Shown here: positions 12,003 to 58,725 of the stretch, one piece after another
Position numbering within the stretch: position 1 is the stretch's first letter
Layout: each line of letters opens with the position of its first letter
NCBI RefSeq assembly: GCF_036365525.1
Contig: NC_090403.1
Span: 26,235,461 to 26,299,460 of the forward strand
DNA: 64,000 nucleotides
Direction: 5' to 3'
Origin: Heterodontus francisci
Lineage: Eukaryota
Position numbers and translations under genes: made by a program
The notes under the pieces: generated by a model
Seen by the model: the letters and a program-made list of their open reading frames with translations, nothing else
Database searches by the model: none
What the model was told of the DNA's origin: nothing

Positions 12003-12101
12003 TTAGTTTCTTCTGCTGATTCGTGCCGTTATTAAAAGGATCTGTTGTAAACGGGCTCTGGTCTCAGTGCGGATTATTTCCCAGGCACAGTTACTGAATC
12101 T
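12003..12101 (-). CDS. IFN1: Type I IFN gene A exon 4 (RFSNCAWEIIRTETRARLQQILLITARISRRN*)
   Basis: Acceptor tttcag at 12102-12107, CAWE motif, TAA stop at 12003-12005. Confidence 0.92.
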   Translation of the reverse strand, partial: RFSNCAWEIIRTETRARLQQILLITARISRRN

Positions 12102-12209
12102 CTGAAAAGGAGAAATATTCAGGAAAAGCAATTAGAAAATGAACGGATTTAAATGGGGTGAAATAAATTACATGTCAGTAATCACATAGTCAAATGTCAA
12201 TTATCCCAC

Positions 12210-12449
12210 CTTCTGTTTGAGAAACTTTCTCAGTTTCCTAAAGTATTGGTGAATGGCAGCGTTTCTCCTCAGCCTGGACTCTGATCCCGGTTTCCAGACA
12301 CATTCTTTCAGCTCTCCGAGCTGCCGATCCAGGAGAAGACGAAAGTTTTCCACCTTGTCCCGGGGCCATGTGACTGAGGCCAGGTTCATGCTGTAGATCT
12401 TGCTGATGTGACGCAGAGTTTGATAGACAATCCGGATCCCGTCCTGGGC
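12210..12449 (-). CDS. IFN1: Type I IFN gene A exon 3 (80 aa, AQDGIRIVYQTL...YFRKLRKFLKQK)
   Basis: Within ORF 12201..12464. cag acceptor, gtggga donor. W...KVENF, QL.EL.EC and YF..L..FL patterns typical of type I IFN. Confidence 0.93.
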
Positions 12450-12562
12450 CTGTGCACAATACATACAATGACATTAGAAGGGGCCTGATTCCATTTAACC
12501 AGCCCGGGATGGGGCAAATTTCATAGCCAATCAATCACTGCTGCTAATGAGAAACTGACTAT

Positions 12563-13390
12563 TTACATAGCATCAATGAAGTTGTTGTGCCTCTGCAATT
12601 GATCATTATATTGCCCGATTTCAATAACAAGACTGTTCTTGCTTAGTGGGTCAGGCTTGCACTGATACAAGCTATACAGTCCAACAGGCACTGAAAAAAA
12701 ATAAAATCCCATGGGATCCAGGGAAATGCAGCAAGGTGGATACAAAATTGGCTCAGTGGCAGGAACCAAAGGGCAATTGTTGACGGTGTTTTTGCGACTG
12801 GAGGGCTGTTTCCAATGGCGTTCCGCAGGGCTCAATACTGGGCCCCTTGCTTTTTGTGGTATATATTAACGATTTGGATGTAAATGTATAGAGCATGATC
12901 AAAAACTTTGCAGATGACACAAAGATTGGCCATATGGTAGATAGTGAGGAGGATAGCTGTAGACTGCAGGAAAATATTTATGGTCTGGTCAGATGGGCAG
13001 AAAGGGAAGTGTGAAGTGATGTGTTTGGTAGAGGAGGAACCCTCACAACATTTAAGAAGTATTTAGATGAGCACTTGAAATGCCATAGCATACAAGGCTA
13101 CGGGCCAAGTGGTGGGAAATGGGATTCGAATAGTTAGGTGCTTGAAGACCAGCACAGACATGATGGGCCAAAGGACCTGTTTCTGTGTTGTATAACTCTA
13201 TAACATTAGGTCAAACAGGGCACAGGAATACATGATTAATGGGAAAATACCGAGAAGTGTAGAGGAAGTGAGGGACTTTGGAGTGAATGTCCACAGACCC
13301 CTGAAGGTAGCAGGACAGGTCCTTAAGGTGGTTAAGAAGGCATATGGAATCCTTTCCTTTATTAGCCAAGTTATAGAATATAGGTATAGG
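12563..13390 (+). mobile_element. CR1 LINE fragments in intron 2 of gene A
   Basis: [14 protein letters not shown] and FADDTK-coding DNA at ~12815-12925, plus a 3' tail piece. Confidence 0.75.
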
Positions 13391-13716
13391 TATAGATATT
13401 TTAAAAAGAAAAGAGTTAACAAAGTGAACATTGGTCCTATAGAAAGTGAGTCTGGGAAATTATTAATGGATAATAAGGAGATAGCAGATGAATTGAACAG
13501 GTATTTTGCATCGGTCTTCAATATAGAGGATTCAAGTAACATCCCAGAATTAGTTGTAAATCAGGAAATGGAAAGGAGGGAAGAACTCAAGAAAATTACA
13601 ATCACCAGGGAAGTGGTACGGAATAGATTGTTGGGGCAGTGGGCTGAAAAGTCCCCGGGGCCTGATGGACTTCATCCTAGGGTCTTAAAAGAAGTGGCTA
13701 GTGAGATAGTTGATGC

Positions 13717-55400: not shown

Positions 55401-58122
55401 CTCGAGAGACAATGGATACGCGCCTGGAGGTGGTCAGTGGTTTGTGAAGCAGCGCCTGGAGTGGCTATAAAGGCCAATTCTGGAGTGACAGGCTCTTCCA
55501 CAGGTGCTGCAGAGAAATTTGTTTGTTGGTGCTGTTGCACAGTTGGCTCTCCCCTTGCACCTCTGTCTTTTTTCCTGCCAACTACTAAGTCTCTTCGACT
55601 CGCCACAATTTAGCCCTGTCTTTATGGCTGCCCGCCAGCTCTGGCGAATGCTGGCAACTGACTCCCACGACTTGTGATCAATGTCACACGATTTCATGTC
55701 GCGTTTGCAGACGTCTTTATAACGGAGACATGGACGGCCGGTGGGTCTGATACCAGTGGCGAGCTCGCTGTACAATGTGTCTTTGGGGATCCTGCCATCT
55801 TCCATGCGGCTCACATGGCCAAGCCATCTCAAGCGCCGCTGACTCAGTAGTGTGTATAAGCTGGGGGTGTTGGCCGCTTCAAGGACTTCTGTGTTGGAGA
55901 TATAGTCCTGCCACCTGATGCCAAGTATTCTCCGAAGGCAGCGAAGATGGAATGAATTGAGATGTCGCTCTTGGCTGGCATACGTTGTCCAGGCCTCGCT
56001 GCCGTAGAGCAAGGTACTGAGGACACAGGCCTGATACACTCGGACTTTTGTGTTCCGTGTCAGTGCGCCATTTTCCCACACTCTCTTGGCCAGTCTGGAC
56101 ATAGCAGTGGAAGCCTTACCCATGCGCTTGTTGATTTCTGCATCTAGAGACAGGTTACTGGTGATAGTTGAGCCTAGGTAGGTGAACTCTTGAACCACTT
56201 CCAGAGCGTGGTCGCCAATATTGATGGATGGAGCATTTCTGACATCCTGCCCCATGATGTTCGTTTTCTTGAGGCTGATGGTTAGGCCAAATTCATTGCA
56301 GGCAGACGCAAACCTGTCGATGAGACTCTGCAGGCATTCTTCAGTGTGAGATGTTAAAGCAGCATCGTCAGCAAAGAGGAGTTCTCTGATGAGGACTTTC
56401 CGTACTTTGGACTTCGCTCTTAGACGGGCAAGGTTGAACAACCTGCCCCCTGATCTTGTGTGGAGGAAAATTCCTTCTTCAGAGGATTTGAACGCATGTG
56501 AAAGCAGCAGGGAGAAGAAAATCCCAAAAAGTGTGGGTGCGAGAACACAGCCCTGTTTCACACCACTCAGGATAGGAAAGGGCTCTGATGAGGAGCCACC
56601 ATGTTGAATTGTGCCTTTCATATTGTCATGGAATGAGGTGATGATACTTAGTAGCTTTGGTGGACATCCGATCTTTTCTAGTAGTCTGAAGAGACCACGT
56701 CTGCTGACGAGGTCAAAGGCTTTGGTGAGATCAATGAAAGCAATGTAGAGGGGCATCTGTTGTTCACGGCATTTCTCCTGTATCTGACGAAGGGAGAACA
56801 GCATGTCAATAGTCGATCTCTCTGCACGAAAGCCACACTGTGCCTCAGGGTAGACGCGCTCGGCCAGCTTCTGGAGCCTGTTCAGAGCGACTCGAGCAAA
56901 GACTTTCCCCACTATGCTGAGCAGGGAGATTCCACGGTAGTTGTTGCAGTCACCGCGGTCACCTTTGTTTTTATAGAGGGTGATGATATTGGCATCGCGC
57001 ATGTCCTGGGGTACTGCTCCCTCGTCCCAGCACAGGCACAGCAGTTCATGTAGTGCTGAGAGTATAGCAGGCTTGGCACTCTTGATTATTTCAGGGGTAA
57101 TGCTGTCCTTCCCAGGGGCTTTTCCGCTGGCTAGGGAATCAATGGCATCACTGAGTTCCGATTTGGTTGGCTGTATGTCCAGCTCATCCATGACTGGTAG
57201 AGGCTGGGCTGCATTGAGGGCAGTCTCAGTGACAGCATTCTCCCTGGAGTACAGTTCTAGGTAGTGCTCAACCCAGCGGTCCATCTGTTTGCATTGGTCA
57301 GTGATTATGTCCCCCGATTTAGATTTGAGGGGGGTGATCTTCTTGATGGTTGGCCCAAGAGCTCTCTTCATGCCATCATACATTCCTCTGATGTTTCCGG
57401 TGTCTGAGGCCAGCTGAATATGACTGCATAGGTGTTGCCAGTAGTCGTTTGCGCAACGCCTAGCTGTTCTTTGTGCAGTACTTCTGGCTGCTTTAAGTGC
57501 TGCGGATGTTAAATCGCTGGGGGCTTTCTTGTGACAAGTAACATTCATGACCACAAGTGCCAAGCAATGACCATCTCCAACAAGAGAGAATCTAACCATC
57601 TCCACTTGATATTCAACAACATTACCATCACTGAATATCCCACTATCAACATCCTGAGGGTTATCATTGACCAGAAACTTAACAGGACCAGTCATATAAA
57701 TACTGTGGCAACAAGAGCAGCTCAGAGGCTGGTAATTCTGCGGGAGTAATTCACCTCCTGACGCCCCAATGCCAGTCCACCACCTACAAGGCACAAGTCA
57801 GGAATGTGATGGAATACTCTCCACTTGCCTGGATGAGTGCAGCTCCAACAACACTCAAGATGCTCGACACCATCCAGGATGAAGCAGCCCAATTGATTGA
57901 CACCTGATCCAACACCTTCAACATTCTCTCCCTCCACCAGCATTGCAGTGTGTAACATGTACAAGATGCACTGCAGCAAATCACCAAGAATTCTTCGACA
58001 ACACTTTCCAAAGCTGCAACCTCTACCACAGCAGCTGCTTGGCAACACTATCACCTGCGTGTTCCCCTCCAAGCTACAAACCATCCTGACTTGGGAGTAT
58101 ATCGCCGTTCCTCCACTGTTAG
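52497..58122 (+). mobile_element. Degenerate LINE (APE + RT) in intron 2 of D, split by an RTE insertion
   Basis: Duplicate of 28170-31640. Confidence 0.85.
55370..57530 (-). mobile_element. Young 5'-truncated RTE-clade LINE with an open RT frame (RTE part of ORF 55434..57794)
   Basis: KAPGKD, NYRGISLLS, GVKQGCVLAP, LLFADD, zinc motif and an (AAAG)n tail. Empty site gataagtgacaa in B and C. Confidence 0.95.
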
Positions 58123-58328
58123 AATTAAGGAGAAAGTAAGTGCTGTCATTGTGAGTGATATAGTTAGTGAGTGAATGACTGAGTAGTTCTGCTGTCATTC
58201 TCACACCAATGGGCGGAAAACACTGGATTTAAATTTCCTGGTGTTGAAATTTCTGATCAGGTTGATGATCTTACTCATACTCTCAATAAAACTCCAGTTT
58301 GAATAAAATAAACCCAGTGTTCACTCAC

Positions 58329-58418
58329 CTCGAATCCCTTCGAAAGTTTCATCAGGTTCAAGGGCTTGGTTTTCAGCGAGAGCCTCTGTTTTACACAGTG
58401 TCGAGGAAAGGGACCGCC
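58329..58418 (-). CDS. IFN1: Type I IFN gene D exon 2 (GGPFPRHCVKQRLSLKTKPLNLMKLSKGFE)
   Basis: 90 nt with canonical splice sites. Confidence 0.92.
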
Positions 58419-58593
58419 CTGAGAGGAGACAACAATCACTGTTACAATCAGCCCCAGAAACTGAAATACTACAGAATCACTGACTATTAATTAGCAAAAT
58501 TATAAACTGCAAACTATTTCTCCTGATATGGGGTTTCACAACAAACAAACCCTGTGTGGTCCGGTTATGGTTCTGAATGTGTTTTAAACTCAC

Positions 58594-58725
58594 CATTTCA
58601 TTCAGTTTGCTCAGAGTCTCTGTGTTGAGAACTTGTTGTAACTGCAACCTCTCACAGCCCAGACTCAGGGTCCCGGGCAACAAGACCAACACCATCCAAA
58701 ATCTCCAAACACTGGGCAAAGCCAT
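58594..58725 (-). CDS. IFN1: Type I IFN gene D exon 1 (44 aa)
   Basis: ATG at 58725, gtgagt donor. Confidence 0.93.

What the first reader, a model, noticed from the sequence alone, without database searches (positions are those of the whole stretch)
12003..58725. Recently amplified tandem array of intact 4-exon type I interferon genes
Seen: four minus-strand genes with identical exon sizes (132/90/240/99 nt), all introns phase 0, no stops, 186 aa each, spaced 11.9, 10.8 and 15.7 kb apart. Introns, promoters and old TE relics were duplicated with them. Known: mature Cys at 1/29/101/136 and CAWE match the 4-cysteine type I IFN pattern. Teleost type I IFNs have 5 exons and amniote ones have none. 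Inference: a lineage-specific, probably copy-number-variable expansion in a cartilaginous fish by DNA-level duplication rather than retroposition.
Basis: partly seen in the sequence, partly recalled or inferred. Interest (0 to 1): 0.85.

Follow-up and report, generated by a model that had tools for sequence, protein, structure and literature searches.

The report
Horn shark interferon gene cluster
This is an already annotated cluster of shark antiviral interferon genes; the one fresh point is that neighbouring old gene copies appear to keep swapping their first exon and promoter while the rest of each gene stays distinct.

Summary
The four minus-strand genes are real: exons 132/90/240/99 nt, GT-AG phase-0 introns, 186 aa, no stops, Pfam Interferon and type I IFN fold. 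They are known: g1 and g2 match NCBI horn shark (Heterodontus francisci) proteins 186/186, and 4-exon type I IFN genes in tandem are published for cartilaginous fish (PMC5332411). Only g2-g4 are young (178/186 aa). g1 is an old paralog (150-151/186) whose body is 21-28% diverged in non-coding DNA, while its exon 1 and promoter are 2-7% from the array. The repeat unit runs from one exon 1/intron 1 junction to the next, as expected from unequal crossover seeded in shared exon 1/promoter sequence. In other galeomorph sharks the same split recurs: exon 1 groups by lineage, exons 2-3 by paralog (AU tests). I found no paper describing this. g2-g4 also carry a fifth cysteine. 'Recent' is roughly 10-56 My by a rough calibration. 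Expression and copy-number variation are untested. Ordinary family, modest new twist.

The parts
12003..20358 (-). g1: type I IFN gene, old paralog ('type B'); exons 20358-20227, 19576-19487, 12449-12210, 12101-12003; four mature Cys
   Evidence: 186/186 to P0005 'interferon a3-like [Heterodontus francisci]'; B residue at 9 of 9 diagnostic columns
19577..19783 (-). Old internal duplication in g1 intron 1: 33-nt remnant of the 3' end of exon 1 plus a second copy of intron 1 (the one that carries the acceptor for exon 2)
   Evidence: blastn of exon 1; the two intron 1 versions are 27% apart from each other and 26-28% from g2 intron 1
20217..32102 (.). Repeat unit 1 (11,886 nt): exon 1 and promoter of g1, intergenic DNA, exons 4-2 of g2. 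Left edge of the young array lies about 10 nt inside g1 intron 1
   Evidence: alignment of g1 and g2 upstream regions; unit alignment
20359..20741 (-). Proximal promoter of g1, NF-kB-like site at -339 and IRF-like site at -247; 6.8% from g2
20742..21342 (.). 601-nt repeat-derived insertion found only in the g1 promoter; pushes the distal IRF/NF-kB motifs 610 nt further from the ATG
26304..32244 (-). g2: type I IFN gene ('type A'); exons 32244-32113, 31937-31848, 26749-26510, 26402-26304; fifth Cys at mature 148
   Evidence: 186/186 to P0002 'interferon alpha-14-like [Heterodontus francisci]'
32103..42929 (.). Repeat unit 2 (10,827 nt)
32905..33290 (-). Distal upstream element of g2 (also upstream of g1, g3, g4): NF-kB-like palindrome at -1039, GAAAGTGAAA at -915, donor-like motif at -684, stretch similar to the N-terminus of a catshark gene model
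37138..43071 (-). g3: type I IFN gene ('type A'); exons 43071-42940, 42764-42675, 37583-37344, 37236-37138
   Evidence: 178/186 to g2
42930..58583 (.). Repeat unit 3 (15,654 nt), longer because of insertions
45951..47554 (+). 5'-truncated LINE insertion with open reverse-transcriptase frame, only in unit 3
   Evidence: RVT_1 E 6.7e-31
50642..58725 (-). g4: type I IFN gene ('type A'); exons 58725-58594, 58418-58329, 51087-50848, 50740-50642
   Evidence: 178/186 to g2 and g3
55368..57530 (-). Second insertion of the same LINE family (95% identical, opposite orientation) in g4 intron 2
   Evidence: RVT_1 E 4.5e-33
58584..64000 (.). Repeat unit 4, cut by the window end; implies a fifth gene with its stop codon near 64,884
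   Evidence: position extrapolated, not seen

Best explanation
This is part of the horn shark type I interferon cluster. Each gene encodes a secreted helical antiviral cytokine (23-aa signal peptide, disulfides C1-C101 and C29-C136 by homology) that is probably induced through IRF and NF-kB sites, made short-lived by AU-rich 3' UTRs, and signals through IFNAR-type receptors (inferred from the family). The locus history is: an old duplication gave neighbours B (g1) and A; A and B kept exchanging their promoter and exon 1; unequal crossover inside that shared block duplicated the interval between two exon 1s, giving g2-g4 and more copies to the right; later exchanges made the units mosaics, and LINE/SINE insertions then marked single units. 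Shown: gene anatomy, family, fold, unit boundaries, divergence contrast, mosaicism, exon-wise tree conflict. Inferred: expression, secretion, disulfides, receptor use, the recombination mechanism and its direction.
For: PF00143 E 1.9e-28 and 9.6e-28, above the gathering cut-off. AlphaFold model pLDDT 84.8, helical bundle with straight last helix; all listed Foldseek hits at E<=0.001 are type I IFNs. Identical NCBI horn shark proteins. Sharp edge: g1 vs g2 differ at 3/132 nt in exon 1, 26/382 in the proximal promoter, 52/2606 in the distal promoter, but 36/127 in the first 130 nt of intron 1 and 21/90 in exon 2 (Fisher p 7.5e-7 exon 1 vs exon 2). Unit lengths equal ATG spacings. Mosaic units: 320 runs in 602 singleton sites versus 393+/-11 in shuffles, 0 of 10000 as low. 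Cross-species: on 18 A/B proteins from 8 galeomorph species plus one outgroup, exon 1 rejects the paralog tree (delta logL 77.5, p-AU ~0) and exons 2-4 reject the lineage tree (delta logL 100, p-AU 0.0005); signal peptide and helix A each reject the paralog tree on their own. 9 ATTTA in the first 300 nt after the g2 stop versus 2.4 expected, 0 of 1000 shuffles.
Against: No expression data were available. Promoter motifs are weak on their own: IRF-E 111/1000, NF-kB 126/1000, looser IRF 28/1000, GAAAGTGAAA 19/1000 shuffles reach the count. The horn shark genes did not nest inside the A or B clades in the exon 2-4 tree (basal, support 46-62); their assignment rests on diagnostic residues (g1 9 of 9 B; g2 6, g3 5, g4 7 of 9 A) and exon 2 distances. 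A and B were defined from the same exon 2-4 tree, so that half of the test is partly circular. Exon 4 does not separate the two trees (p-AU 0.38/0.62) and exon 3 only barely (p-AU 0.036, KH 0.06). Other species were seen as protein models only, without DNA. Direction of exchange (A to B or B to A) is not resolved.
Confidence: 0.8

Rival explanations
1. All four genes are products of one recent amplification, with g1 simply evolving faster.
For: Identical exon sizes; g1 exon 1 is 97.7% identical to g2.
Against: g1 introns and 3' UTR are 21-28% from g2 while units differ by 2.7-4.4% overall; g1 carries the B residue at 9 of 9 columns shared with other shark orders; exon sizes are conserved family-wide (most homologs are 184-187 aa).
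Confidence: 0.05
2. Exon 1 looks alike in A and B only because it is under strong purifying selection, with no sequence exchange.
For: Helix A is well conserved across elasmobranchs; exon 1 is short (44 aa).
Against: Conservation cannot give lineage-specific shared changes: within-species A-B distance in exon 1 is 0.045-0.13 versus 0.15-0.27 between orthologs of different orders in 6 of 6 species; the signal peptide alone rejects the paralog tree (p-AU 6e-5); in the window 3 kb of non-coding upstream DNA is also shared at 93-98%.
Confidence: 0.07
3. The units are an assembly artefact: haplotypes of one or two genes joined in tandem.
For: High identity between units; no reads could be examined.
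Against: Units differ by 2.7-4.4%, over ten times the diversity reported for another shark (pi 0.002, PMC10587355 passages); there are four distinct versions; each carries private insertions or deletions of 353-2163 nt.
Confidence: 0.04
4. The young copies g2-g4 are redundant dosage copies drifting towards pseudogenes rather than selected, diversifying subtypes.
For: Among g2-g4, 12 of 14 variable codons are non-synonymous, as expected with no selection (binomial p 0.39); g3 has L69R in a column that is nearly invariant in 47 sequences; an unpaired Cys replaced an Arg kept in 31 of 40 homologs; g4 lacks the -246 IRF-like match.
Against: 3 of 3 frames and all splice sites stay intact although the units have taken several insertions and diverged 2.7-4.4%; the same counts also fit mild positive selection. 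This rival concerns selection only and is compatible with the structural history above.
Confidence: 0.3

Closest known systems
Cartilaginous fish type I IFN genes (elephant shark cluster; Secombes and Zou 2017, PMC5332411)
   Same: [quoted passage not shown]
   Different: More copies here; fifth Cys in g2-g4; synteny with growth hormone/CD79 could not be checked in this window.
NCBI horn shark models P0002 and P0005, and elasmobranch homologs
   Same: g2 and g1 are identical to them; 69 elasmobranch-type homologs found.
   Different: Automatic names ('alpha-14-like', 'a3-like') carry no orthology; the A/B/C paralog groups and the exon 1 exchange are not in those names.
Chondrichthyan IFN1 expansion of Redmond et al. 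2019 (PMC6640115)
   Same: Their catshark fragment Scca_1 (supplement row) reads like the type A protein P0011 by eye; they report a lineage-specific expansion in cartilaginous fishes, possibly IFN-f related (section 16).
   Different: They favour birth-death over concerted evolution at the whole-gene level; here both act, on different exons. Which of their two chondrichthyan clades these genes join was not tested.
Gene conversion in the human IFNA cluster (Manry et al. 2011, PMC3244034)
   Same: Paralogs in a type I IFN cluster exchange sequence (passages).
   Different: Those genes are intronless; the passages seen describe scattered events, not a tract that ends at one exon boundary in several lineages.
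Teleost type I IFNs (grass carp IFNa 7wkh, zebrafish IFNphi1 3piv)
   Same: Best solved relatives by sequence (E 5.5e-18, 1.1e-15) and fold.
   Different: Five exons in print; those two are 2-cysteine group I proteins.

Membership tests
Type I interferon | Interferon alpha/beta domain above the Pfam cut-off | tested here: met
   PF00143 100.1 and 97.8 bits versus 26.8 for P0002 (=g2) and P0005 (=g1); exon 3 of 4 of 4 genes passes alone
Type I interferon | Helical bundle with straight C-terminal helix | tested here: met
   Model of g2 protein, continuous helix 158-185; Foldseek top hits all type I IFNs, TM 0.53-0.75
Type I interferon | Conserved cysteines and CAWE motif | tested here: met
   Mature C1, C29, C101, C136 and CAWE in 4 of 4; pairing itself inferred from homology, not measured
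Type I interferon | N-terminal signal peptide | tested here: inconclusive
   Hydrophobic 23-aa leader; residue 24 aligns with the first Cys of mature fish IFNs; no signal-peptide predictor was available
Type I interferon | Virus induction, IFNAR signalling, antiviral activity | not testable with these tools
   Only promoter motifs and AU-rich elements seen
Cartilaginous fish type I IFN gene | 4 coding exons, phase 0 introns | tested here: met
   against PMC5332411
Cartilaginous fish type I IFN gene | Synteny with growth hormone/CD79 locus | not testable with these tools
   No neighbouring gene in the window; no vertebrate genome collection on hand
IFN-f related clade versus clade sister to amniote IFN1 (Redmond 2019) | Phylogenetic placement with elephant shark and teleost IFN-f sequences | not tested
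   Searches returned elasmobranch proteins only
Type IV IFN-upsilon, type III IFN-lambda | Five coding exons (IFN-upsilon also N-terminal CXXXXX[W/L]) | tested here: not met
   Four exons; criteria from PMC8863823 passages and PMC5332411
Retroposed IFN copies | No introns | tested here: not met
   Three introns in 4 of 4; flanks duplicated with the genes

The most novel reading that the evidence does not exclude
In sharks, the intron-containing IFN genes evolve as modules: for about 175-200 My, independently in at least six lineages, paralogs A and B have kept promoter, signal peptide and helix A in common by repeated exchange that stops at intron 1, while selection keeps the exon 2 AB loop (the main IFNAR2 contact in human IFNs) paralog-specific. 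This would give co-induced ligands with different receptor preference, and the same shared block seeds copy-number change. The window would hold the breakpoint itself. A further lead is an upstream exon giving signal-less IFN, so far described for teleosts.
Probability: 0.3. Interest if true: 0.62.

Novelty: new member of a known kind. Interest (0 to 1): 0.33.

Why it matters
The genes and their 4-exon plan are known, so the headline adds little. The exon-wise conflict matters to people who build interferon trees: whole-protein alignments of shark IFNs mix two histories, which may be one reason their phylogeny is unstable, and it reconciles concerted and birth-death evolution within one gene. 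It also gives a concrete test: A and B should be induced together but differ in receptor use. I estimate about 0.8 that the pattern is real exchange and about 0.3 that it is maintained by selection for function.

Tried and rejected
Cluster listing to count horn shark copies could not be made, so the 9 members of the P0002 cluster are not identified and copy number stays unchecked. Rfam: 0 matches in the window. Tandem Repeats Finder: one short array. Search for further IFN exons or pseudogenes: only the 16 exons and the 33-nt remnant. The 1.6-kb inverted repeat is not a DNA transposon or an inversion breakpoint but two independent LINE insertions; two other long open frames had no Pfam match. 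The exon 1 remnant as an alternative exon: its frame is closed by a stop 24 codons upstream (read); rejected as unlikely. Positive selection among g2-g4: not significant. Exchange of exons 3-4 between type C and other paralogs: suggested by distances but neither tree rejected. Upstream alternative first exon: the frame in phase with exon 2 is open for 30 codons without Met in 4 of 4 copies, and the catshark model does not use the same donor; kept as a lead only. No complex prediction was run. Paper searches that found no description of horn shark IFNs or of exon 1 exchange in sharks: 0 papers; 0 papers; the library lacks most subscription journals, where much fish immunology is printed.
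Full report
Observation. Self-comparison shows three full and one partial tandem unit of 93-98% identity between about 20.2 kb and the window end. Four minus-strand genes lie at 20358-12003 (g1), 32244-26304 (g2), 43071-37138 (g3) and 58725-50642 (g4). All have exons of 132/90/240/99 nt, 12 of 12 introns are GT-AG and phase 0, and each gives 186 aa without internal stops; ATG spacings are 11,886, 10,827 and 15,654 nt. A profile from 40 homologs finds these 16 exons and nothing else of note in six frames. 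The description is accurate except that g2-g4 have a fifth mature cysteine (148) and g1 is not a recent copy.

Identity. Exon 3 of 4 of 4 genes passes the Pfam Interferon cut-off alone. g1 and g2 are identical over 186 aa to NCBI proteins of Heterodontus francisci, P0005 and P0002, which score 97.8 and 100.1 bits against PF00143. The best solved relatives are grass carp IFNa and zebrafish IFNphi1. An AlphaFold model from 47 sequences (pLDDT 84.8) matches only type I IFNs at E<=0.001 among the rows listed. In the model exon 1 holds the leader and first helix, exon 2 the following loop, exon 3 three helices and exon 4 the last helix, which fits the published loss of intron 3. Four exons, tandem clustering and the 4-cysteine form are stated for cartilaginous fish in PMC5332411 (passages); PMC8980424 says five exons for cartilaginous fish in its introduction (passage), which this window contradicts for these genes. 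So family, structure and annotation are known.

What is young and what is old. g2, g3 and g4 share 178 of 186 aa pairwise; g1 shares 150-151. Against g2, g1 differs at 52/2606 nt in the distal promoter, 26/382 in the proximal promoter and 3/132 in exon 1, then at 36/127 in the start of intron 1, 21/90 in exon 2, 23/240 in exon 3, 23/107 in intron 3, 11/99 in exon 4 and 67/242 in the 3' UTR. The change falls about 10 nt after the exon 1 donor. The repeat unit therefore runs from one exon 1/intron 1 junction to the next (20217-32102, 32103-42929, 42930-58583, 58584-end), and carries the promoter and exon 1 of one gene with the body of the next. That is the product expected from unequal crossover between neighbouring paralogs inside their shared exon 1/promoter block (inference). 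g1 intron 1 also holds an old duplicate of the exon 1 end and of intron 1 (19783-19577), which breaks collinearity with the A genes just where the exchange stops. g1's proximal block has 23 private changes in 524 columns against 3-4 in the other units, and is fenced by a g1-only 601-nt insertion: it seems to have dropped out of later exchanges. Units differ by 2.7-4.4% overall, about 1-7% locally, and the odd-one-out changes in blocks (320 runs versus 393+/-11; 0 of 10000 shuffles), i.e. they are mosaics. Private insertions, including two copies of one LINE family with open reverse-transcriptase frames, came afterwards. A fifth gene is expected near 64,884.

Age. If the A/B split predates the Early-Middle Jurassic divergence of shark orders (bioRxiv 10.64898/2026.02.13.705779, passages; 175-200 My is my recalled range for that interval), non-coding A/B distance gives 10-16 My for 2%, 18-28 My for 3.5% and 35-56 My for 6.8%. 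This is rough: conversion resets the clock and an older split makes ages larger. 'Recent' means Cenozoic, not population-level. Unit divergence is over ten times the diversity of 0.002 reported for the epaulette shark (PMC10587355, passages), which argues against joined haplotypes; reads were not available.

The same pattern in other sharks. From 69 homologs I kept 47 full-length models and dropped 22 that were partial, fused or lacked an exon, and added g3 and g4. The tree of exons 2-4 splits lamniform, carcharhiniform and orectolobiform proteins into cross-order clades A (support 93) and B (97). The tree of exon 1 groups the same proteins by lineage (Chiloscyllium 95, Orectolobiformes 91, Scyliorhinus 95, Lamniformes 89, Mustelus 98), while a third type, C, keeps its own exon 1 (98). 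On 18 A/B proteins from 8 species plus one outgroup, exon 1 rejects the paralog tree (delta logL 77.5) and exons 2-4 reject the lineage tree (delta logL 100, p-AU 0.0005). By part: signal peptide p-AU 6e-5 and helix A 2e-4 against the paralog tree; exon 2 4e-9 and exon 3 0.036 against the lineage tree; exon 4 undecided. Of 9 diagnostic columns (70% threshold in the code; the printed label says 80%) 6 are in exon 2, 3 in exon 3 and none in exon 1; g1 has the B residue at 9 of 9, and g2, g3, g4 the A residue at 6, 5 and 7. Against: the horn shark genes sit basally with weak support in the exon 2-4 tree; A and B were defined from that tree; exon 1 is only 44 aa; other species are gene models without DNA, so chimeric predictions are not excluded, although A and B exon 1 differ in each species and the window shows the arrangement directly.

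How it likely works. From the family: secreted IFN induced by IRF and NF-kB. All four promoters have GAAAGTGAAA, a palindromic NF-kB-like site and a second NF-kB-like site at -339; each motif is weak against shuffles (19-126 of 1000), whereas the AU-rich 3' UTR of g2 is clear (9 versus 2.4 ATTTA, 0 of 1000) and g1 has fewer (3 in 700 nt). In human IFNs the AB loop is the main IFNAR2 contact (PMC8980424, passages); here it is exon 2, the most paralog-specific part (37% aa difference g1 versus g2). Shared regulation with different receptor contact is thus plausible but untested. Among g2-g4, 12 of 14 variable codons are non-synonymous, which fits neutrality (p 0.39); g1 versus g2 gives dN/dS about 0.6. 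The fifth Cys replaces an Arg present in 31 of 40 homologs; by the alignment it lies next to the position that PMC8980424 equates with human IFN-alpha2 Arg149.

Comparison with print. Redmond et al. (PMC6640115; passages, section 16, supplement rows) report a chondrichthyan expansion and favour birth-death evolution; figures were not seen. Gene conversion among type I IFNs is known in humans (PMC3244034, passages). Signal-less IFN isoforms are known in teleosts (PMC5127012, passages). Searches listed nothing on horn shark IFNs or on exon 1 exchange in sharks; most listed papers were seen as listings only, and subscription journals are largely missing.

Verdict. Real, correctly identified, largely known. 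The expansion covers three of the four genes. The fresh element is an exchange tract limited to promoter and exon 1, seen at DNA level here and at protein level in six other shark species. Novelty: new member of a known kind. Interest 0.33.

Noticed in passing
window 33012-32905 (also 21736-21629, 43838-43731, 59493-59386), minus strand: Upstream stretch similar to the odd N-terminus of catshark model P0024 (tblastn E 3e-4, 69 queries), with a donor-like motif at -684 and IRF/NF-kB motifs further up: a conserved regulatory element or an upstream exon.
   Followed up: partly
proteins P0037, P0001 (Leucoraja isoforms) and P0058 (unnamed): Signal-less N-termini joined to exon 2 or exon 3; P0058 comes from a 902-nt contig, so it looks spliced. 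A lead for non-secreted IFN isoforms in skates, as in teleosts.
   Followed up: partly
window 45951-47554 (+) and 55368-57530 (-): Two 95% identical, 5'-truncated LINE copies with open frames of 523 and 787 codons and RVT_1 matches; they look RTE-like to me (recalled, not tested), suggesting a recently active family.
   Followed up: partly
window 19783-19577: Remnant exon 1 end with a weaker donor and a second intron 1 inside g1 intron 1.
   Followed up: yes
g2-g4 exon 4, mature residue 148: Fifth cysteine from CGT to TGT; the same change appears in a zebra shark model (P0034) and a skate model (P0069).
   Followed up: partly
g3 codons 47 and 69 (exon 2, 42764-42675): g3 has the type B Arg47 and L69R at a nearly invariant Leu.
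   Followed up: no
type C proteins (P0016, P0004, P0018 and others): Type C keeps distinct exons 1-2, but exon 3 is closest to a same-species paralog in horn, sevengill and sawshark (0.15, 0.06, 0.12); tree test undecided. P0016 is not encoded in the window.
   Followed up: partly
batoid proteins P0047/P0051 and P0046/P0050; Heptranchias P0007/P0054: Exon 1 is again much closer than exons 2-4 between paralogs, so the pattern may extend beyond galeomorph sharks.
   Followed up: partly
window 49543-49839: About 300 nt present in units 3 and 4 and missing in units 1 and 2; 449 nt missing only in unit 2.
   Followed up: no
window 8956-10964: DNA downstream of g1 is about 70% similar to DNA downstream of g2-g4: the old A/B duplication reached at least 3 kb past the stop codon.
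   Followed up: no
window 1-11500: No IFN exon and no stop-free frame above about 140 codons; many short repeat matches.
   Followed up: partly
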